This document shows, piece after piece, positions 1,839-50,370 of a stretch of 64,000 nt of DNA. Positions within the stretch are counted from its first letter, which is position 1; every line of letters starts with the position of its first letter. A model generated the notes under the pieces. The model was not told the DNA's origin. It was given only the letters and a program-made list of their open reading frames with translations, and searched no databases. Source of the stretch: Pelagomonas calceolata (taxonomy: Eukaryota); the NCBI GenBank assembly GCA_918797485.1, contig CAKKNE010000006.1, positions 1,488,001-1,552,000 of the forward strand, given 5' to 3'. A program made the position numbers and the translations under genes.

Positions 1839-2043
1839 TTTTGATTTAACTGTACCGTGACTACTTCGAGACTGCCAGTGGTGGTTAGTAACTGTCGCGG
1901 CGATGGCGTGCTGGTGGGGTGGACGTCCGCCCGCCTCGACGCTATCGCCGCGACGGCGTGCTGGTGGAGCTCCGATCCACACTTCCGGGCGGGCGCGGCC
2001 TCCTGGGCCGAACTAGAAGACTTCATAAGTCACATAATAGTTA

Positions 2044-3885
2044 CTACAGGAACGTCGGCCCACCGCTCGACCGCCGTTCAGCAGGAGTCAGTGCGGACCG
2101 CGGGTCGCTGGAACTTCCAGAGGTCCGCGACGCCGCGAGGAAGTCACGAAGAGAACCGCCCGTCGGCGGCTGCGGCAGCGCGTTGTCGATGGACACGCGG
2201 CGCGACGGTTCTGATGAGGGCGCCGGCAGCGCGCGCGCGATAGTGACGATCTGCAGGACTAGGTCCGCGTGCGCGTCAACTAAAGGCGTCGGCGGCACGA
2301 CGAACCGTTGCGAGTTCCCGGACACGTCTTCGACGACTAGCGTGGAGGGCGCCTCCGTGGCCAAGACGGAGGCGCCCTTGGCCACGAGGCGCTCCGTGAA
2401 CCCCGAACCCGAAGTGACGTCGACGGCACGCATCGCCTTGTAGGGTAATACTTGCGCCACGGCCCCGAAGCCCGCTATGCCTTGTGAGGAGAAGTACAGC
2501 GCGTCGGACGTCACGGTCAGCGTCCCACCTTTCGGCGCGGTTTCCGTAATTATCATCGCCCTACACGCGTAGAGGAACGCGTCCTGGGAGGCGGTCCGGA
2601 ATTTCTCGGCCAAGGCCGTCTCGAGCGGCGACGGCGGCAGGTTCCGCCGCCGTCGCTGCACCAAGGCACCGACCACAGCTTTCGAGGATTGTAGAGCGTT
2701 CTCGACCCGCGCCTGAACCGACTTCTCCTTCCGGCCGACGCGCGCGACGTACTCTTTTCCGGCTCTTAACTCCAGTAAGGCGGTGACGTTGTTCCCCGCT
2801 TCACGCAAAGATGATACACCGCCACCAGGATAGGTGGACACGGGCTCCGTCTCCAGCTCCAGGGGATACGAAGCTAGCGGAGGCGCCCGCGACGGTGGCG
2901 GCGGCTTCACACCCGCAGAAGCGTAGGCCGGCTGCAAGGCAATGGCCACCCGAGCTGCGTCCACTTCCGCTTTCTTAGCTTTCGCATCCAGGGGCCTCGC
3001 GGCGTCCACGAGCCGTCGCTCTAGTTTCACCGCAGCTTCCCGCTGCAAATCCCTAAGAAACCCGTCGTCGAGCCCATCACTCTCAAAGGTCTCCTTTTGT
3101 AACGCGTCACGTACACTCATAAGAGCCTGGAAGACGCTGTCGTCGGCCTTCGCCTCCCATGACTGTTGGGCGAGGGCGCCGATCACAAGGCAACGCTTTC
3201 CATCAGACGCTCCAGAACCAGCGATTAATGAGCCGCCGCCGCCGCACCGATCCGCCAAGAATAAATCGGCGCCCAAGGCGCTCGCCGACGGCCAATCCTT
3301 CCTTCTGACAAAGCCGCGGCCCACGAGCACCGCCTCGATGATCGCCTCCGCCTTCGACCAGGGCGCACCCACGGGAAACGGCCGCGCGAACGCGCGGACG
3401 CCATCTAACGAACATTTGCGAGCGTCGACGGACGCGGCCCAGGAGAGGGGCTTTCTTACTGGTTCGCGCTTCTTCTTCTTCGGCTGTTGTTGGACAGGGG
3501 GACGCGACACAGCTAATGCAGCCGGCCTCACTCTTAATTTCTCGGCGAAGGCGGCCTCGGACACGTTCATCAATGCTTCGCCGTTGACGCTCTCGATGAT
3601 GTCATTCACACGGATGCCTTTGGCTTCAGCGGCGCCCTTGACGCCGACGACGCGGAGGCGGCCCTTTTCTAGCTTGACCCTCAAACCAATAGGACCGTCG
3701 CCGAACGTCATCGCTCCAGCATCGTCCAGAGACGCCTGGATCGCGCGCGCGAGCGCCTCGTCGCCGTCCGTGTCCTTCGTCGGCGTGAAGTCGAGCTCGT
3801 CCTCGTCGGCCTCCTCCTCCAGACCCAACGCCGCGGCCGTTTTTGGTGGCGTTTTGGGCTGCTCGGGCGAGTCGAAGGGGTTCGG

Positions 3886-3917
<32 letters not shown>

Positions 3918-4227
3918 CTACGGCGGGTTCGCTCGGCGCCTTCAGAAAGTCGAAGGCGGAGGAGGCGGGCGCCGGCGCGTCCGTCCGCAGCGCGTCCCGC
4001 GCCGTCGAGAGATCGAGGAGCGGCTTGTCCGTCCGCAGGCCGGCGGGTTCGCTAGCGGCGTTCATGAAGTCGAACGCCGATGCGTTCGCTGGCTCTGTTG
4101 GCGCGGGCGGCGCGGACTGCGCTGGCGCGGGCGCCGCTGGGACTGCTGGGGTCGCGTCCAGCTCGTCTTCGTCGCTGTCGCTGCCCAGCATCAACTGGCG
4201 CAGGCGCTCCTCGTCGGAGGCGTCCAT
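2044..4227 (-). CDS. Protein with Pro-rich N-terminus, UIM-like motif, PDZ domain and C-terminal GRAM/PH-like domain
   Basis: 727-aa ORF. DEALARAIQASL (UIM-like); GPIGLRV...GIRVNDIIESVNG (PDZ); YACRA...GGTLTVTSDALYFSS (GRAM-like). Confidence 0.6.
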
Positions 4228-4308
4228 GATTCACTGCGCCGTTCAAAACTCGAGAGCTTATTGGCGTTCAGCGTTTCACGGAGCTTTTTTTTGGGCTTTG
4301 CATCTTCA

Positions 4309-4330
4309 CTAGCGGCATGTAACACACTAG
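4309..4330 (+). promoter_or_regulatory. CTAG-N14-CTAG upstream motif copy
   Basis: ctagcggcatgtaacacactag between divergent starts 4227 and 4549. Confidence 0.6.
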
Positions 4331-4548
4331 CAAGCACTCAAGGGCCACCTCATCAGGCTCCCAGGCTGCAAAACGCATCGGCATCGGACGCTGGGCCACA
4401 CACGTTCTCTGGACAAGCCCTGCAATCGGCTTCAGGAGCACTTTTGCAGCCCTACGCCAGTCGACGCGCGGGAGGTGCTGCCCGAGACCTCAAGGCATTA
4501 CATACGACGCGTAGGTGCTGCCCGGGCCACTTCAGGGCATTACACCGC

Positions 4549-4908
4549 ATGTATGCGCTGCTTGGCGCCTGCCTCGTCCTCGCCGCGCAAGCATGCGAGG
4601 TCTGCCAGTACAAGCTCTTCGCGGGCGGCTGCCCGGTCGGGCGGCGCAAGGCCAGGGAGCGCTGGGGCGACTGGGTCGTCACCGAGGACGCCTTCGACGA
4701 CGGTGACTGCCGAAACACGTGCTGCGCCGCGAACGAAGACAGTTGCTGCGAGACGGATTTTCACTTTGTCGCCGGCGTCGCCGGGGGCTTGTTTGTGCTC
4801 ATCGCGATCTGCGTCGTGGTCTGCTGCGTCGAGTGTCGGCGGCGGCGCGCGCTCGGGCGCGTCGTGCGGAAGCGGGCGGCGCCTCCGCTCGAAGCCGCGC
4901 GTGTGTAA
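4549..4908 (+). CDS. Small Cys-rich single-pass membrane protein (Shisa/WBP1-like architecture)
   Basis: MYALLGACLVLAAQA signal, Cys-rich ectodomain, TM VAGVAGGLFVLIAICVVV, then CCVECRRRR. Confidence 0.55.
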   Translation: MYALLGACLVLAAQACEVCQYKLFAGGCPVGRRKARERWGDWVVTEDAFDDGDCRNTCCAANEDSCCETDFHFVAGVAGGLFVLIAICVVVCCVECRRRRALGRVVRKRAAPPLEAARV

Positions 4909-4945
4909 GACTTGTACTGTACGATCGACATCTCTTACACATTGA

Positions 4946-6109
4946 TCAGCGCCGCCCGCCGAGGCCCGGCGGCAGGTCTCCCCCGCGCTTCAGGCCCGGC
5001 GGCAGGCTCGGCCCGCTCGCGCGCGGCGGGGGCGGCGGAGGCGGCGGCCGCCTTCTCCTCGCCTGGGGCGGCATCATGCGCGCCGGCGGGCCGCGCGGCG
5101 CGCCGGGCCGCTGCGGGCCGATGCTCGAGCCCTCGCGCACGCCCGGGCCCCGCATCTTGAGGACCGATCCCGGCGCGGGGTAGGGCCGCTGCTGCCAGAG
5201 CGGCCCCGACGCCGTCGAGTCGGCCATGCGCTCGCCCTTGTGGTGGAGCCCGTCCGAGTAGCGGCCGCCGCTCAGGCCGAGCGGGTCGAGGGGGTCGATC
5301 TGGGACTTGTCCCTCTTCTTTTTCTGAGCGGCCGCCAAGGCAGGGTGCGGCTGGGGCCGCGGCTTCGGTCCCTCCGGCCGGCGCGTCGCGCCGTCGCCCG
5401 CATCATTTGCGTGTGTAGGCGGCTCCCACCGCCGTTCCCCGGTCGCGTCCTTGACGTAGTAGACCTGGTTCGACGAGGGATGGACGCGCGAGCTCCAGCC
5501 CGGCGGCAGCGCCACCGGAGCCGTCGGTGTTGCGGACGGCACCATGACCGCCGGCGCTTCCTGCCTCACCAACGACCCGGCCTTGCGTAGTTGCGCCTGC
5601 ACGCCTAGTAACTTGTGCTGCAGCTCCTTGTAGGCCTCGTCCCGTTCTCTACCAGCAACCTGCTTCAGCGTGTTGTCTCGAGTCCTCTCGAGCTGCGACA
5701 TCTTTTCTCGCTTGCGCTTCTCCGCGGCTCGGCCCCGTAAGCAGTCGTCGGGCACGCCGTCGTCGCCCTGCTCCAAGTACGCCAGGGCCTGCGCCCGCTT
5801 CCGCTGCGCGTCGAGCTCCGCCTTGTATTTTTCGTCGGACATGGTCTTGCGCTCGCCGCGCGGGCCGACCACGACATCCCGCTTCACCTTGGGAATGGTC
5901 ACTTGTTTAGGTTTTGGTTGGTTGGACGGCTCGTCCGCAAAACCGGGGTAGTGCTGGCCCGTGTTCTCGGACCAGAGCTTCGCTTGTTTGGTGGGGCGGT
6001 AGTCGCGCGCGTCGACCTCGTCCTGGACCTCCCAAAACTTCCTTCCGGTAGCTTTGGCGAGTCTATCAATGCGCTCGCGGTCCGCCTGGCGGCTCTGGCC
6101 GTTCATCAT
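4946..6109 (-). CDS. PQBP1: Polyglutamine-binding protein 1-like WW-domain splicing factor
   Basis: WW domain LPPGWSSRV...VYYVKDATGERRWEPP and the PQBP1-type C-terminal DPLDP...YSD...ADSTASGPLWQQRPYPAPGSVL. Confidence 0.75.
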   Translation of the reverse strand: MMNGQSRQADRERIDRLAKATGRKFWEVQDEVDARDYRPTKQAKLWSENTGQHYPGFADEPSNQPKPKQVTIPKVKRDVVVGPRGERKTMSDEKYKAELDAQRKRAQALAYLEQGDDGVPDDCLRGRAAEKRKREKMSQLERTRDNTLKQVAGRERDEAYKELQHKLLGVQAQLRKAGSLVRQEAPAVMVPSATPTAPVALPPGWSSRVHPSSNQVYYVKDATGERRWEPPTHANDAGDGATRRPEGPKPRPQPHPALAAAQKKKRDKSQIDPLDPLGLSGGRYSDGLHHKGERMADSTASGPLWQQRPYPAPGSVLKMRGPGVREGSSIGPQRPGAPRGPPARMMPPQARRRRPPPPPPPPRASGPSLPPGLKRGGDLPPGLGGRR

Positions 6110-6362
6110 GGTTTCTTGCTTGTGGCCGGCGCCCTAAAGGGCGCTCGGGCTTCGCGTTTTGTTGGTTGCGTCGCGCGCGCGGCGGCGTATGTGGCGCTCG
6201 AGAGGCGCTCCCTGGTTGTGGCTTTTCGGGAGCCGCGGCGGCGCCGTTGGACGGCGCGGCTGTACTGCGTTGGTTGGGCGCTTGGGCCGCGTCTCTCGAT
6301 CGCTTCGGGGCGGGCGTAACGTGCCACAGCCTTTTTAGTGTGTAAATGTCGGCTGCGTATTC

Positions 6363-6384
6363 CTAGTGTCTTACAGGACGCTAG
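6363..6384 (-). promoter_or_regulatory. CTAG-N14-CTAG upstream motif copy
   Basis: ctagtgtcttacaggacgctag between divergent starts 6109 and 6545. Confidence 0.65.
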
Positions 6385-6544
6385 CAAGCGTGCATGGCAA
6401 AGCTGCCGCAGTAGAGCACCCTGGTTGCTAAAATTGCGCAGGCGTCGCACCTTTCGACATCTCTGAGGCTTGCAAGCGGCGGGAGCACGCCTGAGTGGAC
6501 GTGCGCCAACGTGCAAGCAGTGACCGCGGTGCCGTGGCAGCGCC

Positions 6545-6904
6545 ATGCCGCCGCGCAAGAAAAAAGACGACCCCATGGCTGCTGTGGATGCGCTCCCGCT
6601 CGTCCAGGAGCTCGAAAAGGCCCTCGCGTGCCTCGACGCGGTCGAGAAGGACGTCGACGAGGGCAAGCGCCCGGGCAAGGACATGGACGCCTTCTTCCAG
6701 CAACTGGGCCGCGTCGACGACGCCGCCGCGGCGCTGCCGGAAATGCCCATCCCCCAGGGCGCCCTGGACGACGGCGCGGACCTGGACGTCGTCGCGAGAC
6801 AGGACCTCCGGCGGCAGCTCGACGACCTCGCGGCCGAGGGGCACCGGAAGAAGAACATGAAGACGCTCGCTGATTTGGTTGAGGCGGGCCTTGATAATAC
6901 TTAG
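6545..6904 (+). CDS. Small helical protein, possibly divergent Mediator subunit 10
   Basis: 119-aa ORF with GC3-rich codons. IP...LDDG.D pattern and size recall MED10 (VPLEV..YIDQGRNP); resemblance by eye only. Confidence 0.4.
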   Translation: MPPRKKKDDPMAAVDALPLVQELEKALACLDAVEKDVDEGKRPGKDMDAFFQQLGRVDDAAAALPEMPIPQGALDDGADLDVVARQDLRRQLDDLAAEGHRKKNMKTLADLVEAGLDNT

Positions 6905-8541
6905 AGTTTCCCCAGGGAGAGCGCGTACCACTTGTCGAGGCGCTTGACGAACGACGTCCCGAGCTTCCGCCAGCCCTTCCAGGTCAGGGGCACCTTCGCC
7001 ACGGTCGCCTCATACACGTTGTCCGCGACGGTCACCCAGCCCTTGCCCGTCGTGGGCACCCAGCCTAGCAGACGGTCGTAGGCAGTGTTGAAGCCCCTGA
7101 GCCAGCCGTCCGTCGACGTCGGCACCTTGGCCAGGGTCAGGTCGTAGGCCGCGTGGAGGCCCTCGTTCGCTAATGAGGTGACAGATCCGACGACTGCAGT
7201 CGTTTTCGCGTAGCACGCCCCGGCGGCGGCGGACGTCTTCGCGCACGCCGTGCTGACGGCGGGGCCGGCGTTGCTCGTGATATAGCAAGCACCGGACTTG
7301 ACGCCGCCGACGCAGGAGCTGAGCGCGGGTCCCGCGCCCGCCGCGGCCGCCTTGGCGCCGGCGGCGACGGCGCCGGCGCCGGCCTTGGCGCCGGCGGCGA
7401 CGGCACCGGCGCCGGCCTTGGCGCCACCAACGGCCGCGCCGAGGGCCGGGCCCGCGCCGCTCTTCACGCAAGCGGCGCCCGCGCACGCCTTCGTCGCCAC
7501 GAAGCCGGCACTCGCTTTGGCGCCGGAGGCCACGGCTCCCGCGCCCGCCGCGGTCTTCGCCGCCACAAAGCCGGCACCGGCCTTGACGCCGCCGACCGTC
7601 GCGCCGAGGGCCGGGCCCGCGCCCGCCGCCACCGCGGACACGCCCGCCTTGGCGCCGGAGGCGACGGCGCCGGCGCCCGCGCACGCCTTGGCCGCGACGT
7701 AGCTGCCGCCGGCCTTCGCGCCGCCGACGCAGGCGCCGAGGGCCGGGGCTACCGCGCCCGCACCCGCCTTGGCACCAGAGGCGACCGCGGCCGCGCCCTT
7801 CGTCACACCGGTGGCGACGGCGCCGGCGCCGGCCTTGGCGCCGCCCGCGACGGCCGCGGCGGCCGGGCCCGCCTTGGCGCCGACGGCCGCGACCGCCGGC
7901 CCGACCGCCGCGCGCACCGGCGGCGCCGCGAGCGACACCGCGACGGCGCCGACGGCGAGCGGCACGACGGGGAACGGCCGCTTCTCCGCCTCCTTCGCTT
8001 TGATAGCGGCGGCCTCGCGCGCCGGTTCCGCGTACTTGCCCGTGACGTCGCCTTTGCCGGCGGTCGCCTTCGCCGGCGCGGGGGCCGCCTTCGTCGCCGT
8101 CGGCGCCGCCGCGGCCTTTTCCGCCTTCTTCTCCGCCGCCTTGGCGACGTCCGCGAGCCGGGCGGCCTCGGCGTCGGCCACGCGCTGCGCCTCTTTTTCC
8201 TTCGCCGCCGCGACGTCCTCGAGGCGCTTCTTCTCGGCCGCGGCGACGTCCGCGTCCGTCTTCGCCGCCGGTGCCGATGCTGGCGCCGGTGCGGGCTCCG
8301 GCTTCGGCGCGGGCTTGGGCGCCGGTGCCGGCGCCGGCGCAGGAGTGGTCTTCGCCTTGTCGTCCTTCGTCAGACCCGCAATAAATTGGTCCTGCCAGGC
8401 GTAGATCTTGTCCTGGAGCGTCTCCTTGGCGAAGAGCGGGGCCGCGCGCAGCGGTGCCCGTTGCCGCGGCACGGGCGCGAAGGCCGCCGCGAGGCCTAGC
8501 AGCAGCGCGGCAGCTGTTCCCACTCTTGCCAGCCGTGCCAT
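6901..8541 (-). CDS. Putative plastid-targeted Ala/Gly/Lys-rich repeat protein
   Basis: Signal peptide ending AAA-FAP, basic transit region, TM-like segment, many 11-aa GAKAGAGAVA[A/S/T] repeats and three ~22-aa VP...GW repeats. Confidence 0.65.
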   Translation of the reverse strand: MARLARVGTAAALLLGLAAAFAPVPRQRAPLRAAPLFAKETLQDKIYAWQDQFIAGLTKDDKAKTTPAPAPAPAPKPAPKPEPAPAPASAPAAKTDADVAAAEKKRLEDVAAAKEKEAQRVADAEAARLADVAKAAEKKAEKAAAAPTATKAAPAPAKATAGKGDVTGKYAEPAREAAAIKAKEAEKRPFPVVPLAVGAVAVSLAAPPVRAAVGPAVAAVGAKAGPAAAAVAGGAKAGAGAVATGVTKGAAAVASGAKAGAGAVAPALGACVGGAKAGGSYVAAKACAGAGAVASGAKAGVSAVAAGAGPALGATVGGVKAGAGFVAAKTAAGAGAVASGAKASAGFVATKACAGAACVKSGAGPALGAAVGGAKAGAGAVAAGAKAGAGAVAAGAKAAAAGAGPALSSCVGGVKSGACYITSNAGPAVSTACAKTSAAAGACYAKTTAVVGSVTSLANEGLHAAYDLTLAKVPTSTDGWLRGFNTAYDRLLGWVPTTGKGWVTVADNVYEATVAKVPLTWKGWRKLGTSFVKRLDKWYALSLGKL

Positions 8542-8909
8542 GCTGCTCCTTTTACAAGAAAACTTCGGCAGGGCTTCACACGTGTAATGCGCGGTTACCG
8601 CGGCTGCGCTTGCCCGTACCAGACCGGAGTATGGCACCAGTGTGGGCCAAAAAGCTAGCTTGGCAAAGTCGATGCAAAAAGATAATCTCGCGTCAGGAGC
8701 CGTCGGAGCGCTCGCGAATACCTTTTTCAGGAGTCGCTTCGGCCTTGGTGGCCCAAGAGGCGGCCGCCGCGGTCAGATCGCGGTCACCGCCCGCGCGCCG
8801 TCGACGGAACCCCAAAGCGCTCCGAAGCGCGGCGCTCGGCCCTGCGCGTCGACGAACCCCCCAAAGCGCGGCGCCCCCGCACAGCGATCACGTAACACAA
8901 GACCTACTC

Positions 8910-9392
8910 TTACGGCACGCGGAACGTCTTCCCCTGCTTCCAGAGGTAGTCCAGGTTCCGCCGCTTGACGCGCTTCTTGCCCTTCGTCAGCCACGCCTTC
9001 TGCAACACCGTGATGGACTTCACCAAAGGTGAATACAAGGGCACGTGCCGGCGCATCGGCGTGCCCATCACTCGACAAAACAATTGGACCGACGAGTCCG
9101 CGCCCCGATTGCGCCTTCCTAACACCAGGCCCTTGACCTTTTGGGGTTTTGGCGCGTCCACGTCCACGAGGATCTCCATCTCGATCGCGTCTCCCGCTTT
9201 AAAATCGGGCCACGGCCTATGGACCTTCGCGAGCGCCTCCTTTTGGAGTTGGCCTAGCAATGCGGAGGCCTTGCGCGCGGGCGGCCGCGTGTCCATGGTC
9301 GACGCGCAGGCGCGCTGTGGCCGCGTGGCCGCGCGCGGCGTAGCCGTCGCGGCTGCGCGACGCAGCAGAGGTGCTGCGCGGCGCAGGAGCAT
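8910..9392 (-). CDS. MRPL19: Organellar (likely mitochondrial) ribosomal protein bL19
   Basis: Arg/Ala-rich presequence; PDFKAGDAI, GLVLGRRNRG, PLYSPLVKSITVL, KRVKRRNLDYL. Confidence 0.85.
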   Translation of the reverse strand: MLLRRAAPLLRRAAATATPRAATRPQRACASTMDTRPPARKASALLGQLQKEALAKVHRPWPDFKAGDAIEMEILVDVDAPKPQKVKGLVLGRRNRGADSSVQLFCRVMGTPMRRHVPLYSPLVKSITVLQKAWLTKGKKRVKRRNLDYLWKQGKTFRVP

Positions 9393-9510
9393 GGTGCGCA
9401 GCGATGTCTCAGCTTCCGTTGTTATGAATCGAACAAATGCTACACACACAGAGCTGCTAGCTCGCCGCGAGCTGCCGCGTACGATGCTCAAATGCGGCCA
9501 AAACAGCTCG

Positions 9511-9531
9511 CTAGCGGCAGTAAGACACTAG
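9511..9531 (+). promoter_or_regulatory. CTAG-N13-CTAG upstream motif copy
   Basis: ctagcggcagtaagacactag between divergent starts 9392 and 9676. Confidence 0.65.
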
Positions 9532-9675
9532 CAATTAAGCACGCCAGCTCTAAAACCGTCCAGCGCGGCCCCATTAATAGCTTCTGGTACCATTTTGTTG
9601 GCGCAATACATTACTACACATCGTGCGCCGCTAGCCACAAGGACAGAGACGCCGCCAAAGCGCCAAACACAAAAT

Positions 9676-10584
9676 ATGAGCCTAGGCCTCCTCAGTGCCG
9701 CAAGCAGAATCTGCGACGACGTCAACCTCCTGTGGTCCATCGCCGAGGTCTACAACGAGAGCACACAAAGACCCAGAGCCCACGAGCTGCTGGCCGGCGT
9801 GCTCTACGCGCTGGACAAGGACGCCGCGCCGCCGCCAAAGAAGCGAGTCCAACCACCACCAGTACTGGCGTATGTGGATGAGGACGACGACGAGGCGTTG
9901 TTCGCGAGCGCGCCTCCCCAACAAACCTACGACACGCCCGCACCATCGACCTGGCGCCGGACGCTCGCCGATTGGGCCGCGCGAGCCTGCGACGAACTCG
10001 CCTTGTTCCCGGCGTACCAGCGCGTCGCCTGGCGCACGTCCAGAAGATGCGGTTTGGGTCAAATGGTAGGCATCGTGCCGTACGGTTTGGCACGGTGCGC
10101 GCGCATCGTCATAACGGACGAGCACTGGCTCTCGTCAGCGATCCGGGCGGCCGCGGCCCACCCCTTCGAGCGCGCCGCAATAAAGCTGCTCCAAGGGCGA
10201 GTTTTACCGGTGGAGCCATACCGGGGCTGGCGCGTCTCCATCCTTTTCGCGTGCGTCGAGCGGCGGTCCTCGGTGTTCGCGCCGTGTGTGATGGCGGCGC
10301 GCCTCGCCTGGTTGTGTTCTGAAATTGATGACGGCGCCCCGTTCCGCGGCGAGGCGCTCGTCGCCGCGGCGTGTCAAGCCCTCGCGGGGTCGCTCGTCGA
10401 GCTGCCGCGGGCCGTGGCCTGCGTCTGCGCCGCGCGGCTCGTGCGGCGGGCGTTGTTTGGCGGGTCGCCGGCGCGGCGGGGGCGCGACCGGCGGTTCCGG
10501 AGGCGCCTGCGGCGCGCGCTGGACCGGTCGCGGCCGGCGGCGCCGCGGCCTTTGTCTCAGACGCGAAGGTTCGGCGAGGGCTAG
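9676..10584 (+). CDS. Hypothetical protein
   Basis: ATG at 9676 downstream of the upstream motif; open for about 302 aa; no recognisable domain. Confidence 0.45.
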   Translation: MSLGLLSAASRICDDVNLLWSIAEVYNESTQRPRAHELLAGVLYALDKDAAPPPKKRVQPPPVLAYVDEDDDEALFASAPPQQTYDTPAPSTWRRTLADWAARACDELALFPAYQRVAWRTSRRCGLGQMVGIVPYGLARCARIVITDEHWLSSAIRAAAAHPFERAAIKLLQGRVLPVEPYRGWRVSILFACVERRSSVFAPCVMAARLAWLCSEIDDGAPFRGEALVAAACQALAGSLVELPRAVACVCAARLVRRALFGGSPARRGRDRRFRRRLRRALDRSRPAAPRPLSQTRRFGEG

Positions 10585-42124: not shown

Positions 42125-45100
42125 ATGGCCACCAAGGCCGCCGCGCGGCGGCGCCTCCGGGCCCTGCGAGCTTTACTGAATAAGGACTTAAGTGGAGACG
42201 CGCCGGGCGCGCTCTTGTTCGTCTGCGGCGTCGACGGGAAAGACAATTGGGCCTCGTCGTCGGTCGTGCGGTGGCTTTGCTTGGGAGAGAGCGGGTCGTC
42301 GTTGATCGATGAACGACCGAGGCCCTTCAACCACGACCAGTGGGCCGCGCTCGAGGAGACCGCTCTACTCATGACGCGGGATTCGTTAAGGGTGCTGTAC
42401 GACGCGGCGGCGGGTGACGTGTTGGCACCTTTGCTGACGTGTGGCGCGGGAGGCATTTCAGAGTACGTGCTACCATCCACGGACGATCCCGAACAACGAG
42501 AAAAAGATAAGGTCGCGAAGTTCGAAAGGATGTTAGATGCTGGACTAGGTCCTGAATCAAGGACATTGGGAGTAGCCATCCCGTCCGCCGCCTCGTCAGC
42601 GCGAGAGGAGTGCGAGTACTGGCCGTTAGTGCAAGCCTTAGCGGCTGGTGGTGAAAAAACGTTCTTGTCGCGGAGGCACGACGTCGTCGACGCGTCGCAA
42701 ATACTGAGACAAGTGTTGGTAGCGCCGGACGCCGACTTACTCCGGGAAGCTTTACGGAGAGCCACACCGGCATTAAGACGGCACGTCGAGGAGGCCTTCA
42801 AGAACTGCCGAGGGCCGATGGGCGTGAAAGGCGACGTCGCAGCCGAGTCCATAAGGCAGCCGCTGGAGACCTTCGACGAGTACGACGGTGCCGTTCAGGG
42901 GGAGGGCGGGCCCCTCGCGTCCATCGGATGTGCGTCGCTAGACCTGAAAGAGGGTGACGGCGACGCTCACGTCGTCTTCCAGGCGCGCGAGCCGTCGACG
43001 GGGCTGCGCGTTTGTAGAACCTACTTCCTGCGGAGCGGCGCGTTCGCGACGTTAGATGGGTCGAAGATAGAGGAGGACGAGGCCCTTCTCACACTGTCGT
43101 CGACCTACGCCGACCTATGTTCTAAGTTCAGGGGGGCGGCGCCCTCTCTAGATAGACTGAAGAAGGCCTTTCCTTCGGCCGCTTTCTATGCGCAGACGAC
43201 GGACTGCCTCGGGAACGTCCTGCAAGAGGAGGCCGAAGGGTCGTTAACGTTCGTCCGCGTTTCTGTAAAAACGAAGTTTGGCGTCGTGGCCGTCGGCGAC
43301 ACCTTTTTGGAGGGCGGTGGGCTCTTAACCGGAGACCGCTGCGCGCCCTACTGCAAAGTGGTCGGCGCGTCCAGTGGTCGAGAACGAGAGGCCGCGGAGG
43401 CCATCAAAAGAAGGCTAAGAGATGCCCACGGCCCGCGGTCGGAGGAACTGCAACTGGGGAAGCGGCTAGAATCCTACTCCCACGCCACGCTGGTCCTCGG
43501 CTTTGTTGACAGAGACCCCGTCCCGCACGTCGGGCGGTTGGAGCTCTACGAAGACGGATTCGTCCTCGCGGACGGTGGCCTGGCGCCTCTCGTCGTGTCG
43601 TTTGCGAGACAAGACTGCTCTAAAATAGCCGTCGTGCAGGTGTCGAAGGACGCCCACGGCGTGGCCATGGAGCTTAAGGATCCTTCTCACTTACGAGCGG
43701 GGTCTATCGTTGATGCCTCATATGCCGTGCTTGTGGTGCGGAAGCATGCGCCCGCCAGAAGAGCCGTGGACGGTTCGATAGAGCGGTGGCGCCGCCACTG
43801 TTCGCGCGAGGACGCTCGCGAGTTAGTGAAGCAAGCTCAGGACGCGGCAGCGAGGTGCTGGACCGAAGAAGCCCTGGGCTTGTCTCGCGGCTTATCTGAC
43901 GTGCAGGATGCGAAAGTAGAAGCGTTAATCGACGCCTATGCGGAGCGGAGCGGGTCCCGTACTATAGATCGCCTCTTCGGCGCTTCGAGTAATGAGGCCC
44001 CTGCCAAGAAGGGGCCGCCCGCCTATCTGATTATCGGCGAACCCGGTTCTGGCGTGGCCGACGTCGCCTGCGCTGTTCTCAGGAGAATCGCGGAAGTCGA
44101 TCAAGTAAAGTGGCACCACTGCGAGGCGTTACGAGTGGATGACCGCGTCGATTTGTCGGTCGAGGGCGTGGCGCATTTGGCGCGGGCGGCGGCAGCAGCA
44201 AACAAGTCCAGACTGTTAATAAGCTTCTGCGTGAACGACTCGTCGTTAGCTTGCGCCACGGCCTGCGCGAGAGCAGGGATCACCGTGGCCGGCATCGCGT
44301 CGGTGCACTCGGCGGCGTTACTCGCGGAGGCGTATCCTGATTTGTGTGCGGGTGTCTCGGACCGGAACGCCGTCGCTACGACTCTAGTGGTGCAGGACTC
44401 GCGAGCGGGTCCGAATATCGGTGAAGCGGAGAAGCTGCTCCAGAAGCGGTTAAGGGCGGAAGGTTTGCAATTAAAAGCTTGTCGACGGTCGCGCTTCGCG
44501 ACGGCGTCGAATGTCGTGGACGCGTTGCTACCCGCAAGTGGCGCGGCGTACGAGCACGAGGCAACGTGGTCGAAACCCGCGGACCACCAGTTTTTGGGTC
44601 GAGACAATTCGAGGTTGTTCTCGGCGTTGTACGCGCCGCCTCGCACGCCCCGAGACTTTATGTCGACCTACGTCAAGTGTAGTGTAGGATCCTTAGATCG
44701 GGAACTGCTCAAGGTCGTCCTCAAAGAGTTGTTACCATCAGCGACGTTCGACGACGGCGTCGTGGCCTTCGCCGCTCAGAGTAACAGCACCACCTCGAGA
44801 CCCCCGCTCAAGGCGCTGTTCGACATTGCTCGTAATAAAGTCCGGGCCAAGAGGGACGGCGAGCAGCGCCTCAAGGAATTACCGAGAGATATCGAGCACT
44901 GGAAGGCGTTGTACAAGGACAGCGTTTCACTTCTACAAGGTGGTGTGGACGCGCTGGACGGTTTTGTGGATTTGTCCGTCGATGGCCGGCCCTTACTCCG
45001 ACCGGCGGCGCTCGACGGGAACCGCAGGGTCGTGGGCTGCACGCCGTTGCCCGAGACGCACGGCGCCTGCTCTGGGCAACGCTTCGTCGGCCTCAAGGTA

Positions 45101-45400
45101 CGACGAGGCGTCGCCGGTAAAGCATTAGATCACCTGCTGGGTCTGGCCGCGACCACCCCAAGAATCGCGCGGCCGCGGCGCGAGGAGAAATCACTCACGA
45201 GGGACGAGCGCGTCAGGATCTGCAAGCTCGCCGAGGACCGGCCCCTGCCGCCGGGCTGGGCTTTTGATGGGGCTTGTTATGTGGATGGGTTCGGGCGGCG
45301 GAGCCGGCTCCGGCCGGACGCGACGGAGCTGTGTTTGGAGTGGCTGGAAGGCGTCAATGCTGGTGTCGACGCGTGGAACAAAGCCATCGCGCAACAGTAA
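42125..45400 (+). CDS. DNAAF9: Dynein axonemal assembly factor 9 (C20orf194/Shulin)-like
   Basis: N-terminal LLFVCGVDGKDN, central RTYFL, degenerate P-loop IIGEPGSG, C-terminal PLPPGWAFDG..YVDGFG; 1091 aa. Confidence 0.65.
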   Translation: MATKAAARRRLRALRALLNKDLSGDAPGALLFVCGVDGKDNWASSSVVRWLCLGESGSSLIDERPRPFNHDQWAALEETALLMTRDSLRVLYDAAAGDVLAPLLTCGAGGISEYVLPSTDDPEQREKDKVAKFERMLDAGLGPESRTLGVAIPSAASSAREECEYWPLVQALAAGGEKTFLSRRHDVVDASQILRQVLVAPDADLLREALRRATPALRRHVEEAFKNCRGPMGVKGDVAAESIRQPLETFDEYDGAVQGEGGPLASIGCASLDLKEGDGDAHVVFQAREPSTGLRVCRTYFLRSGAFATLDGSKIEEDEALLTLSSTYADLCSKFRGAAPSLDRLKKAFPSAAFYAQTTDCLGNVLQEEAEGSLTFVRVSVKTKFGVVAVGDTFLEGGGLLTGDRCAPYCKVVGASSGREREAAEAIKRRLRDAHGPRSEELQLGKRLESYSHATLVLGFVDRDPVPHVGRLELYEDGFVLADGGLAPLVVSFARQDCSKIAVVQVSKDAHGVAMELKDPSHLRAGSIVDASYAVLVVRKHAPARRAVDGSIERWRRHCSREDARELVKQAQDAAARCWTEEALGLSRGLSDVQDAKVEALIDAYAERSGSRTIDRLFGASSNEAPAKKGPPAYLIIGEPGSGVADVACAVLRRIAEVDQVKWHHCEALRVDDRVDLSVEGVAHLARAAAAANKSRLLISFCVNDSSLACATACARAGITVAGIASVHSAALLAEAYPDLCAGVSDRNAVATTLVVQDSRAGPNIGEAEKLLQKRLRAEGLQLKACRRSRFATASNVVDALLPASGAAYEHEATWSKPADHQFLGRDNSRLFSALYAPPRTPRDFMSTYVKCSVGSLDRELLKVVLKELLPSATFDDGVVAFAAQSNSTTSRPPLKALFDIARNKVRAKRDGEQRLKELPRDIEHWKALYKDSVSLLQGGVDALDGFVDLSVDGRPLLRPAALDGNRRVVGCTPLPETHGACSGQRFVGLKVRRGVAGKALDHLLGLAATTPRIARPRREEKSLTRDERVRICKLAEDRPLPPGWAFDGACYVDGFGRRSRLRPDATELCLEWLEGVNAGVDAWNKAIAQQ

Positions 45401-45402
45401 TA

Positions 45403-46744
45403 CTAGAAATCCCTCTTTATAGGTGGTGTCCGTTGCCGCCCGGATAGCGGCGGCACCGAAGCGACGTCGTCCGCCGCCCCCAGGACAATGTCGACGGGCA
45501 CGCGCGCCGTCACGACGTCGTCGGGCGCGCCGTCGGCGGACACGCGCTGGCCCCGCGCGACCGTCACCTTCACGCTGTCGCCCGGCCGCTTCCGATCTAA
45601 TGCTTTGAATAGGTCCGCCTCGCCGTTAATACTCCTCCCGTCGACGTCCACAATAACGTCTCCTAGTGTGAGCGCGCCGTCTGGCGACCGAGAAGTGCCC
45701 CGGACGCCCGCCAGAGCTGCGGGGCCGTCCGCTGGCGCGGCTAGTACCTGTGTGGAAATCAACCAGTGACCGCGGCCATGTTTTCGGCTCAAACTGGGAC
45801 ACTCGACCGCGTAGAGCGAGCAGCACCTCACGCAGACCACGAGAGACCCCAAATTGTTGAAGTTTGATTTCCTCACCGGCGAGCACCAACACGCCCGCGT
45901 CGATGCCCAGCGCCTTGGCCTGCTGGCCGCCCAGAAAGGTAATACCCAACACGGGCCTCCTCACTCTACCATCATCAACTAAGGCCTTGACGACCGTAGA
46001 TAAAGTGTCCACCGGAATCGCGAAGCCGACACCCGAGGACGCCCCAGAAGGACTATATATAGCCGTGTTCATGCCTATGAGTCGGCCGGACGAGTCCAAG
46101 AGAGGCCCACCGGAATTCCCGGGGTTGATCGCGGCGTCCGTCTGGATGACATTTGTAATTGGTCTTCCGGTAGGACTGCGTACTTCCCGTCCTAGGCCCG
46201 AGATGACGCCCTGCGTCAGCGTGTGGTCCAGGCCGAAGGGGTTGCCCACGGCAAACACGGAAGCCCCCACTCGTAAGTTAGAAGACGTACCGACGGCGAT
46301 CTTCCTTAGTTTGTCTCGAGGTATATCGTCTACGGTAAGTACAGCGATGTCCTTGTCCGGGTCGACGCCTCGCAGCTGCGCTTTCCGCGACAGCTTCGTC
46401 CCGCCGTCCACTAACAATGTAACATCAGCGGCGGCGGCGTTTCTTATAACATGATAGTTCGTGACGATGTGCCCTCGATCATCCCAGACGAATCCAGACC
46501 CCGTGCCCTGGGGCACGTCCATGTTCATGGACACGGCTTCCCGTTGCTCCGCGAAGGTGTCGATGAATACTACGCTCTTCGTGGCCTTCTCGAAGAGTTG
46601 TATGGTTTCTAACTCGGCTTGGCGCAAAGCCGCGGCGTTCGCGGGGAGTGAGGCTAATGAGGCGTAGGCGCCTAAGATTGATCGCCGGTCTAGCGCCGGT
46701 TTGAGCGCATGTGACGTTGCGAGCAGGCACCACGCGCCGCGCAT
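45403..46744 (-). CDS. Deg/HtrA serine protease (Deg1/Deg8 type, probably thylakoid lumen), two exons (46744-45887, 45747-45403)
   Basis: GTGSGFVWD..GHIVTNYHVI, DKDIAVL, IQTDAAINPGNSGGPLL. PDZ GVL|VLAAPADGPA...LGDVIVDVDG is restored after splicing. Confidence 0.9.
45748..45886 (-). mobile_element. Introner element intron (139 nt)
   Basis: TSD GTGCTCGC/GTACTAGC; TIR CGGTGAGGAAATCAA...TTGATTTCCACACAG; splicing from the TSD GT to the TIR AG restores frame. Confidence 0.85.
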
Positions 46745-46921: not shown

Positions 46922-47000
46922 CAGGATTCTAGGATCTTCTTAACTCGCGCACGACTCCGGGACTTCGTTGGAGGTGCGGCGAGGAGGTAGGGGAAGGCAC

Positions 47001-48733
47001 CTAGTGGAGGAAGACAGCGGCGAGCAGGGCCGCGGCGCCGGCGGCGAAAGCGTTCGTGGCGCCGGCGCCGTCCGTGCTCAGGCAGCCGCGGTGCGCGACC
47101 GGCGCCGGGACCGGCACCGTCGTGAGGAACATCTCGGCGTGGATGATGTAGTAGTCGGCGCCGTAGGCCGTGTAGCCCTCGGTCACCATGCGGTCGCTCA
47201 GGGAGTAGTGCCAGTAGGGCGTCACCAGGTGGCTCACAGGCTGCTCCGCCAGGATGGCCGCGTGGGCCTCGGCCGTCGCCGCGACGCGCGCCGTGTGCCC
47301 CTCCGCCACGTTCAGGGCGTCGAGCTTCACGTCGACGTTTGTGGACGAGAAGCCGCCGTTGTACTTGGTGCTGCCCCCGTCGGTGTGAAAAAAATTGTTG
47401 AGGAACGCTGCGGGGTCGCCCGTGGCCAGCACGTTCTGCGACCACATGAGGATGTCGAAGTCCCCGGCGGCGACGCGGTCCGTGAGTTCGACCCAGTCGT
47501 CGGCGTAGAGTCCCCCCGTCGCGTTAAGGTAAGTCCCGTCTGTGGTCATGCGGTCGTTCACAGTGATCCCCAGAGCTTCTAGATTCGATTTGATCTCCGG
47601 TTGCATGAGCCCCAAGTCCGGGCGGAACTCGTAGGCACAGAGCTCGATCGTGAGCTCCTGGCCGTCCTTCGTGCGCTTGTTGGATGAATCGAGCGTCCAG
47701 CCGGCATCGTCGAGGAGTGCCCCGGCCTCGGTCGCTTTGGCCAAGGAACTGCCTAGGTTGTCCTGGTAGTAGGGCGTGTTTTGAGGGAAGAGGCTCCGCG
47801 TGCCATGGCCTCCCTTCAATAAATCCATGGCATCTTCGCGGTCGATAGCTAGATCGATCGCCTGGCGCACCTTGAGGTCCGCAACGGGGCTGGGGGCTGT
47901 TTTTGCCATGTTGTAGAACATCCTGCGCGGGAGACCGTCGGGAGCCGTTCTCTCGTTCGAACGAGTGATCGAGACGCGGGGGCGCGCATGTAGGTCTGGC
48001 TCACCCCGAAGGACCGGACGTTGACGCCGGTCGTGTTTCTTAAAGTATCAAGGGTGTCGACCGGCACCTTAAAAGCGATGTCCAGGTTCGCTGCGTCAGC
48101 GGCCAGCGCGGCCCCGTTTTCGTACTTGGTCATCTTGATCGGGCGGCGCTCGGTGTGCTGCGGGTAATACGTGTTGGGCACCAGGTCGACGTGGTCGTTG
48201 GCGACGAACTCGGTGATCTTGTAGGGGCCCGTGTAGACGAAGTCCGTGCCAACCTTCTTGTACACTACGAAGACATAGTCGGCGAGCACCGCGTCCATGA
48301 TGGGCGTGGCTTTCGTGCTCTTGATCCGCACCGTCCCGTCGCACGGCACCGTTGCCTCGATGTCGCCGAGCGACGACTGCGTATTGTCGTTCATCGTGTG
48401 CAGTTCGTTCAGGCAGTTCGCGACGTCTTGCGCCGTGACCGGGGTCCCGTCGCTGAACTTGTAGTCCGGCTTCAGGTCAATATCCCACTCGAACTCGCTC
48501 ACTTTCCCCGCCGACTGGGCCACCTCCGGGACGATCTCGCCGTCCGCATTCAGCGTAAAGAGCTTCTCCGCGACGCCGTGCATCACGAGCGCCCACCCAT
48601 TCGAATCAAGCCGGGGATCCTGTGATGCCGTCGGCACGAGATGGCCCACCAGCAACGTGTCGTCGGCGGAGGAGAACGTGTCGCCCGCAGCCGCCGCGGC
48701 GCCAAACGACGCCAGGGCAACGAGGACGCGCAT
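47001..48733 (-). CDS. Bacterial-type ABC solute-binding protein family 5 (NikA/DppA/OppA-like) with signal peptide and GPI-like tail; exons 48733-47988 and 47922-47001
   Basis: GVAEKLF...GEIVPEVA, LKPDYKFSDGTPVTAQDV, TGPYKI, DLKVRQAIDLAIDRE, A.ALLDDAGW, L.ALGI.V. Confidence 0.85.
47923..47987 (-). other. 65-nt GC-AG intron (phase 2)
   Basis: TAC AT|GCGCGC...CCCGCGCAG|G ATG TTC joins the two SBP ORFs in frame (SQTYMMFYN). Confidence 0.7.
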
Positions 48734-49097
48734 GAGGCCTGCGCGGGACGGGCGCGGTCTCGCGCTGGTTTGCAACGGCGATTGTTCCTCGCGCGCGCGC
48801 GCGCGAGGGCAGCCCTCGGGCAGCCTCCCAGCAACAAGGGCAGCCGTGCACGCGCGGCGTCGCAATGCCGCCGCAACCGCCCGGCGCAGCACCTACGATG
48901 GCTCGCATGGACGCCGCGCACGCGCTGTTGGATAACGCCATATCGACGCGCAATCGGATGGCAACGAGCCGGAAAGTCTCAAAGAGTCTTGATAATGATT
49001 CTCCTCGCCAGGTGGCCGCGCCTCAACTTCGACTTCGCGCGGCGCCACGCGTGGAGCGGGGAGCGAGCACAACAGCACATTACTCAGCAGCGAGGGC

Positions 49098-49619
49098 CTA
49101 AGAGTCGTCCGAGTCACTATCCGACGAGCCGTACGCGACCAGCCCAGACAAGGGCGCCGGAGCAGGCGCCGGCGCCGGTGCGTCCACCCGCCGCCGCTTC
49201 AGGACCGGCGCGGGACCCTCGTCCACCTTATTCTTCACACGAGGCGCCACGACGACCGAGGGCGCCGGCGCCTTCGCCGCGTCCGCCCGGAACGCCCGCA
49301 CGGCGCTGTCCTCCGCCGCCTTCGCTTTCGCTCGCCGCTCGTTGTCGGCCTGCTGCTGGCCCTTCGTGTACATCATGTCGCTGTGGTCGAAGGCCCCGCA
49401 CTTATCGAGCCAGTGCGGCACCTTGACGGCGGCCTCGCCGTCGGCCTCGAACTCGGGCGCGTCCTGGCTCCCGGCCATGTTCTCGTGCACCGTGCGCATG
49501 GACTGGCGCTCCTCCTCCTCTTCCTTGGTGAACTTGTAGCCGACCTTTTCGAGCTCCGCTTCTTGCTTCTTCGCGGCCCGGTCCCAGAAGGACTGGGCGG
49601 CGTTCGTGTGGCCGGCCAT
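49098..49619 (-). CDS. Hypothetical charged nuclear protein
   Basis: ATG 49619; C-terminal LKRRR...LSGLVAYGSSDSDSDD, a tail type common in small nuclear proteins. Confidence 0.55.
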   Translation of the reverse strand: MAGHTNAAQSFWDRAAKKQEAELEKVGYKFTKEEEEERQSMRTVHENMAGSQDAPEFEADGEAAVKVPHWLDKCGAFDHSDMMYTKGQQQADNERRAKAKAAEDSAVRAFRADAAKAPAPSVVVAPRVKNKVDEGPAPVLKRRRVDAPAPAPAPAPLSGLVAYGSSDSDSDDS

Positions 49620-49880: not shown

Positions 49881-50370
49881 TAGGGCCAGGGACGGACAAA
49901 AAGTTCGGGTCTGAACCGTGTCCGAGTCCGGGCTGGTCTGAGTCCGTCCCAACCTTGGTCTGAGTCCTAGTCCGAGTCTGACTTTTGTCCGAGTCCGAGC
50001 CTGGTCTGAGTCTGAGTCTGAGTCCGAGTCTGAGCCCGAGCCCGGGTCTGAGTCCTAGTCTGAACTTTAGTCTGAGATTTCCGACCAAAAGGGCGATTTT
50101 GGTCCGTTGGGGGATAAAGTTTCCCTCTAGTCCGCTCTCCGTCTGAAGTTTAGTCTGCTCTCCGGTCTGAGTCCTAGTCCGAATCTGAGTCCTAGTCTGA
50201 AGGCTGGTCTGAGTCCTAGTCCGGTCTGAGTCCTAGCCGAGTCTGAGTCCTAGTCCGGTCCGAGTCTGAGCCGGGTCTGAGTCCGTCTCAGTCCGAGTCC
50301 GTCCGAGTCCGAGTCCGAGCCAAGTCCGCCTCGGACTCGGACAAAAGGTTCGGGTCCGTCCCTGGCCCTA
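49881..50370. mobile_element. Non-autonomous DNA transposon (MITE), 490 bp
   Basis: Perfect 17-bp TIR tagggccagggacggac / gtccgtccctggcccta; flanking direct repeat gccctg (49875-49880, 50371-50376); interior of ctgagt/ccgagt/cctagt hexamers. Confidence 0.85.

What the first reader, a model, noticed from the sequence alone, without database searches (positions are those of the whole stretch)
47001..48733. Bacterial ABC substrate-binding protein (family 5) apparently converted into a eukaryotic surface-anchored protein
Seen: full SBP_bac_5 motifs, an ER-type signal peptide (MRVLVALASFGAAAAAG), a GC-AG spliceosomal intron and a C-terminus with Pro spacer, small residues and hydrophobic tail (STDGAGATNAFAAGAAALLAAVFLH). 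No permease or ATPase lies nearby. Established: family 5 SBPs bind nickel, metallophores, haem or peptides in prokaryotes. Inference: a horizontally acquired, GPI-anchored scavenging receptor for Ni, other metals or organic N, working without its ABC partner. The intron and eukaryotic neighbours argue against contamination.
Basis: partly seen in the sequence, partly recalled or inferred. Interest (0 to 1): 0.75.

Follow-up and report, generated by a model that had tools for sequence, protein, structure and literature searches.

The report
Algal surface receptor, likely for cobalt
This spliced, very highly expressed gene of the ocean picoalga Pelagomonas calceolata encodes a bacterial-type binding protein that is predicted to be lipid-anchored on the cell surface, and because most of its bacterial relatives sit behind vitamin-B12 riboswitches it likely captures chelated cobalt or B12-like molecules rather than nickel.

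Summary
Real gene. The 562-aa product equals Pelagomonas calceolata CAH0379224.1 and takes about 0.3-0.5% of reads in four runs of one sample. It has a family-5 SBP fold, a signal peptide and a GPI-type tail. It belongs to one algal clade (pelagophytes, diatoms, Chloropicon, Picozoa; 100/100 support) nested in proteobacterial SBPs; 38 of 46 algal and 0 of 32 bacterial members carry the tail. New here: 59 of 80 bacterial loci carry a cobalamin riboswitch, 59 of 80 a CbiX-like or DUF1636 gene, and one algal branch is fused to a CBA1/BtuF-like domain. So the likely cargo is chelated cobalt or a corrinoid. Nickel or zinc remain possible: the two closest bacterial sisters lack the riboswitch, and this copy's pocket motifs have drifted. 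The kind is known (ZCRP-B, CBA1, FBP1), but by similarity profile this is not ZCRP-B, and ten literature searches did not find this family. The scan noted analogous Naegleria family-3 SBPs, not this family. Ligand and anchor are untested.

The parts
48926..48976 (-).
   Evidence: read ends and joint 48736/48924; translation equals CAH0379224.1
48739..48925 (-). Intron 1, 187 nt, GC-AG
   Evidence: 427, 2695, 534, 340 spliced reads; ends GCGCGTGC...CCCGCGCAG
47988..48738 (-). Exon 2: signal-peptide core (second ATG 48733, hydrophobic residues ~9-23) and N-terminal half of the family-5 SBP
   Evidence: Pfam PF00496; hydropathy; model
47923..47987 (-). Intron 2, 65 nt, GC-AG
   Evidence: 1726, 4054, 1593, 1375 spliced reads; contigs of four further runs
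47001..47922 (-). Exon 3 coding part: C-terminal half of the SBP, Pro-rich linker, GPI-type signal and TAG stop
   Evidence: Pfam; alignment A1
47004..47078 (-). Predicted GPI signal: candidate omega site D540 or G541 in S-T-D-G-A-G, spacer, hydrophobic end without cytoplasmic tail
   Evidence: sequence; home-made tail rule, 38 of 46 algal vs 0 of 32 bacterial; no GPI predictor was available
46925..47000 (-). 3' UTR and poly(A) site
   Evidence: poly-T loose ends at 46925-46927

Best explanation
The gene is spliced and very highly transcribed and encodes a secreted family-5 'Venus flytrap' binding protein that is predicted to be GPI-anchored on the outer cell surface, where it likely binds a chelated divalent metal, most likely cobalt as an organic chelate or corrinoid, and would hand it to an algal uptake route instead of an ABC permease. 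Shown: gene structure, expression, fold class, one algal clade inside proteobacterial SBPs, B12-linked context of most bacterial relatives. Inferred: ER entry and GPI attachment (sequence pattern), ligand class (nearest structures bind metal chelates), metal identity (gene context), delivery by endocytosis or by release next to ZIP/NiCoT-type carriers (analogy with ZCRP-B, CBA1, FBP1). Rough odds: surface binder of a metal chelate 0.8; given that, cobalt or corrinoid 0.6.
For: Splicing and 3,335-5,252 reads per million on the 4.4-kb stretch, nearly all on this gene (depth ~500-10,000 against 15-115 beside it). Model pLDDT 86; best folds S. aureus NikA (3rqt, 4xkr with Ni-His chelate) and B. 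halodurans 3t66; profile E 1e-84 and 3e-70 for these, 1e-39 or weaker for peptide binders. 24 of 24 algal rows form one clade, 100/100, within proteobacteria. Cobalamin riboswitch upstream, same strand: 8 of 8 and 9 of 14 loci by Rfam, 50 of 65 loci with enough upstream DNA by nhmmer, 59 of 80 combined. DUF1636 in 33 and a CbiX/2Fe-2S gene in 26 of 80 loci. 42 of 50 carrier genomes have the corrin-ring gene cobM, so they make B12 and need cobalt. Riboswitch-less loci often carry zinc-starvation-type genes (CobW 5, ZnuA 3, Fur/Zur 4, DUF1826 2 of 21). Algal protein P0203 fuses this domain to an N-domain whose two best bacterial hits are Peripla_BP_2 proteins behind cobalamin riboswitches; P0207 keeps a piece of the same domain. 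Four algal members have His-rich linkers.
Against: No binding or localisation data. The two closest bacterial sisters lack a riboswitch and lack cobM in their (incomplete) genomes and have urease: L001 follows a Fur-family regulator, L016 a TonB receptor. Urease is in 40 of 50 carrier genomes, so genome co-occurrence does not separate cobalt from nickel. The nearest solved structures are nickel binders. This copy departs at 14 of 91 columns conserved in both algae and bacteria, where most algal members depart at 0-3, so its ligand may have changed. Only 2 of the 7 bacterial hits of the fused N-domain had a riboswitch, the hits are weak (E 3.5e-8 at best), and the fusion lacks the W-F-E residues placed near B12 in CBA1. 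High expression in culture runs of unknown medium does not look like a tightly starvation-induced gene. 8 of 46 algal members, among them the Chloropicon group, lack the tail.
Confidence: 0.5

Rival explanations
1. Surface nickel-chelate receptor serving urease and Ni-SOD.
For: Best structural and HMM matches are NikA/Opp5A nickel binders. The two closest bacterial sisters have urease, no riboswitch and no cobM found. P. calceolata has urease and a Ni-type SOD (PMC12054182, PMC9481584 passages).
Against: Scores are far below the NikA cut-offs (186 of 600; 87 of 393). No urease or hydrogenase cluster among the 40 commonest neighbour groups. No solute-binding gene, and no Pca_6p0824x/0826x/0827x row, in the nitrogen DEG tables that include urea (the gene's own ID is inferred from its neighbour Pca_6p08250). 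A NiCoT gene exists separately.
Confidence: 0.17
2. Zinc (or mixed Zn/Co) scavenger, a functional twin of diatom ZCRP-B.
For: Same Pfam family and same proposed role as ZCRP-B (PMC9010474). Riboswitch-less bacterial loci often lie among ZnuA, CobW, Fur/Zur, DUF1826 genes; L001 follows a Fur-family gene. His-rich linkers in 4 algal members.
Against: Only a minority of the 80 loci have zinc-type context; similarity profile differs from ZCRP-B.
Confidence: 0.15
3. The Pelagomonas copy has drifted to a non-metal organic ligand (peptide, amino-acid derivative, B12 lower ligand) or to a surface role such as sensing or adhesion.
For: 14 of 91 conserved columns changed, several in loops that line the pocket in NikA (pocket positions partly recalled). 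Wild near-relatives are block mosaics with shared signal and tail. Very high basal expression.
Against: Peptide binders score far lower than metal-chelate binders; H59, W54, R356, Q418, W493, D512-Y513 are kept; no nitrogen regulation seen.
Confidence: 0.13
4. Bacterial contamination or a mis-assembled contig.
For: None beyond the bacterial Pfam family.
Against: Two spliced introns, poly(A) tail, eukaryotic neighbours, GC3 0.86 against 0.68-0.71 for two neighbours, presence in 19 runs at half the words or more.
Confidence: 0.005

Closest known systems
ZCRP-B of diatoms (Kellogg et al. 2022, PMC9010474; XP_002183815.1)
   Same: Family-5 SBP in algae, membrane-tethered, no NikB/C partner found, proposed to concentrate Zn/Co at the surface.
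   Different: ZCRP-B is E. coli NikA/CntA-like (30.5%, E 7e-49; CntA 3e-28; S. aureus NikA 2e-7) with a predicted N-terminal anchor. This family ranks S. aureus NikA first, E. coli NikA weakly (26%, E 6e-21; diatom members E 1e-9 to 1e-13), CntA last, and has a C-terminal GPI-type tail. Its sequence could not be fetched for a direct comparison.
S. aureus NikA (Opp5A; PDB 4ofj, 4xkr, 3rqt) and B. halodurans 3t66
   Same: Best sequence and fold matches; cluster that binds metal as a small chelate.
   Different: 21-22% identity, 186 bits against a cut-off of 600; these are parts of complete ABC importers.
Unnamed proteobacterial operon: cobalamin riboswitch - CbiX-like or DUF1636 - SBP - two permeases
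   Same: Direct sister group, 30-38% identity, shares the GYxY, AQ[HN]T.P.GDP and WGSDY motifs.
   Different: No tail, has permeases, riboswitch control; uncharacterised itself. Predicted B12-regulated NikABCDE-like systems are mentioned for two clostridia in PMC2667541; whether they are this family was not tested.
CBA1 (Sayer et al., PMC10828217) and FBP1/FeABC (Coale et al., cited in PMC13284251)
   Same: Bacterial-type SBPs used by algae at membranes for B12 or siderophore uptake without a known ABC partner; one branch of the present family is fused to a CBA1-like domain.
   Different: They are BtuF/FepB-type (Peripla_BP_2) folds, unrelated to family 5.

Membership tests
SBP family 5 (PF00496) | Profile match above gathering score and three-domain periplasmic-binding fold | tested here: met
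   85.3 and 85.5 bits vs 32.4; Foldseek E 8e-38, TM 0.69/0.82
Bacterial ABC importer component | Cognate BPD_transp_1 permeases and ATPase encoded | tested here: not met
   None in window; 0 PF00528/IPR000515 rows in the stored annotation table, which is cut in chromosome 5, so the test is incomplete
NikA / Opp5A / CntA equivalogs | NCBIfam cut-off | tested here: not met
   186/600, 87/393, 57/800 bits
NikA / Opp5A | Binds nickel chelate | not testable with these tools
   needs binding assay
ZCRP-B | About 30% identity and E ~1e-49 to E. coli NikA, CntA closer than S. aureus NikA | tested here: not met
   26%, E 6e-21 over 382 aa; reverse ranking
ZCRP-B | Orthology to XP_002183815.1 / XP_002297477.1 | not testable with these tools
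   sequences not retrieved; alignment figure is a picture; neither accession appeared among named hits
ZCRP-B | Induced by low Zn/Co | not testable with these tools
   run conditions are not given
GPI-anchored proteins | N-terminal signal, small-residue omega site, spacer, terminal hydrophobic stretch, no cytoplasmic tail | tested here: met
   by inspection and a home-made hydropathy rule; no trained predictor
GPI-anchored proteins | Anchor attached; PI-PLC release | not testable with these tools
   experiment needed
Horizontally acquired gene | Eukaryotic rows nest inside a bacterial clade with support | tested here: met
   24 rows 100/100, sister L001 97/96, inside proteobacteria; no AU test run, donor and timing not fixed
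CBA1 (for the fused domain of P0203 only) | Conserved residues listed by Sayer et al. | tested here: inconclusive
   8 of 12 matched with consistent spacing, anchors picked by eye; W255 and W394-F395-E396 equivalents missing; bacterial hits are Peripla_BP_2; fold model unusable

The most novel reading that the evidence does not exclude
Several groups of marine algae share one bacteria-derived, GPI-anchored receptor that captures organically bound cobalt or B12 fragments from seawater: a dedicated cobalt/corrinoid uptake receptor, parallel to CBA1 and once fused to it, which Pelagomonas makes in bulk and diversifies by shuffling pocket segments.
Probability: 0.35. Interest if true: 0.82.

Novelty: new variant of a known kind. 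Interest (0 to 1): 0.6.

Why it matters
[quoted passage not shown] This family gives a soluble, purifiable candidate in one of the most numerous ocean eukaryotes, with a clear ligand list to test and a possible field marker. It also shows a second family-5 SBP recruitment beside ZCRP-B, so metaproteomic 'ZCRP-B' calls based on Pfam or loose BLAST may mix two families. The bacterial operon is itself an uncharacterised B12-regulated importer that mostly lacks its own ATPase gene.

Tried and rejected
No whole genome was held, so paralogue number and a genome-wide permease search rest on a cut annotation table. Site 47663 (C>G and C>T in 9-17% of reads) was first read as paralogue reads; rejected as likely sequencing error, since it is a lone three-allele site after a GGC run. 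Search for long fusions found one unrelated protein. ESM Atlas gave only generic bacterial family-5 clusters; the query for the P0203 N-domain did not complete. Single-sequence fold of P0203 failed (pLDDT 35) and was not searched. Pfam and NCBIfam found nothing on that N-domain. No further close relative of L001 in 300 genomes of its class. Urease as a discriminator failed (40 of 50). Supplements of PMC13284251: 11 of 17 files searched, no hit for family-5 terms; file 10 unreadable, files 13-17 not searched, four more too large, so an iron or light response cannot be excluded. B12-limitation papers on Phaeocystis and Tisochrysis do not mention such a protein in the main text; their supplements were not read. 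Bertrand 2012 was not held. FastTree gave low support (0.55) to the algal clade; IQ-TREE gave 100/100 and a larger FastTree 0.998. No complex was folded.

Full report
1. Observation. The minus-strand gene is real and spliced. Both halves hit SBP_bac_5. Raw poly(A) reads skip the 65-nt GC-AG intron 47987-47923 in 1726, 4054, 1593 and 1375 reads (X21, X24, X22, X23), and contigs of X2, X3 and two marine runs (X17, X18) do too. The three-exon product is letter for letter P0060, which the collection names CAH0379224.1, Pelagomonas calceolata, 562 aa. The 4.4-kb stretch takes 3,335-5,252 reads per million, almost all on this gene; depth is ~500-10,000 against 15-115 for neighbours. All four raw runs carry one sample label and their growth conditions are not given. 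Contamination is excluded.

2. Anatomy. One hydrophobic stretch at the N-terminus and one at the very end; between them an SBP modelled at pLDDT 86. Best folds are S. aureus NikA and B. halodurans 3t66; the family profile ranks them far above E. coli NikA, CntA and peptide binders. The tail reads Pro-rich linker, S538-T-D540-G-A-G, spacer, 14 hydrophobic residues, stop: a GPI-signal pattern by established rules, not by a trained predictor. A simple rule finds such a tail in 38 of 46 eukaryote-type and 0 of 32 bacterial members; 2 and 7 rows were dropped because the C-terminal reference motif was not matched. No permease lies in the window or in the stored annotation table of the genome paper, which is cut in chromosome 5.

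3. Family. Searches return an algal group at 39-57% identity (78-94% for Pelagomonas-like sequences) and a bacterial group at 30-38%. Named algal members: Fistulifera solaris, Thalassiosira exigua, Chloropicon primus, a Picozoa SAG; most others are unnamed and called eukaryotic from their features and tree position. In a 49-row IQ-TREE the 24 algal rows are one clade (100/100) inside proteobacteria, sister to a Brachymonas MAG (97/96); 49 of 97 rows were used and no AU test was run. So one old acquisition, then spread by descent, endosymbiosis or further transfer; the donor is not fixed.

4. Ligand clue from bacteria. Of 129 relatives found in GTDB genomes the best 80 loci were kept. The layout is SBP then permease (78 of 80) then a second permease (72 of 80). 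A cobalamin riboswitch lies upstream on the same strand in 8 of 8 loci I picked, 9 of 14 more varied ones, 50 of 65 with at least 1.8 kb upstream by an nhmmer profile built from the hits, and 59 of 80 combined. Between switch and SBP sits DUF1636 (33 of 80) or a CbiX/2Fe-2S gene (26 of 80); DUF1636 is described as possibly involved in cobalt insertion (10.64898/2025.12.19.695462, passages). 42 of 50 carrier genomes tested (50 of the 80 loci) have cobM. A B12-repressed importer with a chelatase-like gene in B12 makers is most simply a cobalt importer (inference). Against: urease is in 40 of 50, and the two closest sisters have no riboswitch, no cobM found, and follow a Fur-family gene (L001) or a TonB receptor (L016). 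Some riboswitch-less loci sit among zinc-starvation-type genes.

5. Ligand clue from algae. P0203 carries a ~300-aa N-domain before this SBP; P0207 (12 cluster members) keeps a short piece of it. They and P0206 form the deepest algal branch. The N-domain's hits in 7 of 201 Bacillota genomes are weak; the two best are Peripla_BP_2 proteins behind cobalamin riboswitches and before FecCD-type permeases; 2 of 7 loci had a switch. It matches 8 of 12 CBA1 residues of Sayer et al. by eye and lacks those placed near B12. This is a Rosetta-stone hint, resting on one full sequence.

6. This copy is atypical. It departs at 14 of 91 columns conserved at 85% or more in both 44 algal and 37 bacterial rows, e.g. 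E159D, W160Y, Y253Q, A417S, T420V, P422A; several align to NikA loops that line the pocket (R137 is named in PMC2667541; the W398 loop is recalled). Environmental near-relatives share signal and tail but are mosaics of 100% and 65-85% blocks; these may be recombinants or assembly chimeras. The Pelagomonas-like types P0007 and P0010 are closer to consensus (4 and 5 departures).

7. Regulation. The nitrogen DEG tables of PMC12054182 (low nitrate, urea, cyanate, ammonium, field nitrate) hold no solute-binding gene and no row for the IDs next to the neighbour Pca_6p08250; this weakens the urea/nickel and organic-nitrogen ideas but does not test metal withdrawal.

8. Mechanism. Signal peptide to ER, GPI attachment, display outside the cell, capture of a chelated metal between the lobes, hand-over by endocytosis or release near a carrier. 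The last three steps are inferred by analogy with ZCRP-B, CBA1 and FBP1. Odds: cobalt chelate or corrinoid 0.5, nickel 0.17, zinc 0.15, non-metal or other role 0.13.

9. Known versus new. Orphan bacterial SBPs on algal membranes are published: ZCRP-B (PMC9010474: outline, parts 2-4 of 8, section 6, supplement 1 text; figures not seen), CBA1 (PMC10828217, PMC11439496: passages), FBP1/FeABC (PMC13284251: outline, passages, 11 of 17 supplements searched). By similarity profile this is not ZCRP-B, though the direct comparison could not be made. Also seen as passages: 10.1101/2023.11.05.565706, PMC9481584 (plus supplements, one cut), PMC2667541, PMC10861871, PMC6557843. Ten library searches gave no description of this family or of the bacterial operon; subscription papers and unread supplements may hold one, and MMETSP 'ZCRP-B homologues' in Kellogg's Supplementary Fig. 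9 (picture) may include members. The scan has no look-alike by sequence; two notes on Naegleria family-3 SBPs are analogous.

10. Verdict. Observation confirmed and extended; interpretation partly supported, with the ligand moved from nickel to cobalt/corrinoid. New variant of a known kind; interest 0.6.

Noticed in passing
L002-L080 (bacterial loci): Only 5 of 62 loci with 4.5 kb downstream carry an ABC ATPase (motif search); the alphaproteobacterial B12-riboswitch operons are mostly SBP plus two permeases with no ATPase gene, so they would borrow one.
   Followed up: partly
P0203, P0207, P0206: Deepest algal branch: fusion of a CBA1/BtuF-like domain to this SBP; P0206 and P0207 end in a transmembrane helix with a cytoplasmic tail instead of a GPI-type end.
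   Followed up: partly
P0195, P0120, P0016, P0022: Other algal fusions: a tandem double SBP with tail (P0195), extra partial family-5 lobes (P0120, P0016), and a tail that looks like the start of a Peripla_BP_2 domain (P0022; recalled motif, no Pfam hit).
   Followed up: no
P0001-P0010, P0085, P0098: Pelagomonas-like sequences from seawater share signal peptide and tail but are block mosaics in between; real recombination or assembly chimeras.
   Followed up: partly
window 45626-46744 (-): Chloroplast DegP-like protease with a 139-nt GT-AG intron (45746-45884 region); matches Pca_6p08250, which is higher in low-nitrate ocean samples.
   Followed up: partly
window 42128-45400 (+): Long gene with a DAAF9 N-terminal domain (dynein axonemal assembly factor 9-like).
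   Followed up: no
window 49900-50370: Hexamer-type repeat tract (GAGTCC/GAGTCT units) bounded by what look like inverted ends (GGCCCAGGGACGGAC... / ...GTCCGTCCCCTGGCCC); possibly a small non-autonomous element.
   Followed up: no
window 49101-49619 (-): Expressed 173-aa gene without Pfam hit, ending in a GLVAYGSSDSD-type acidic motif.
   Followed up: no
Pca_5p13250 (PMC9481584 supplement): A second PF00496 gene in P. calceolata, best match Thalassiosira oceanica THAOC_34563; family (this one or ZCRP-B) not determined.
   Followed up: no
P0059 and many ENA entries: Prokaryote-style gene calls split this gene at the intron into ~294-aa and ~302-aa pieces, seen on 125 contigs; counts of homologues in such collections are inflated.
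   Followed up: yes
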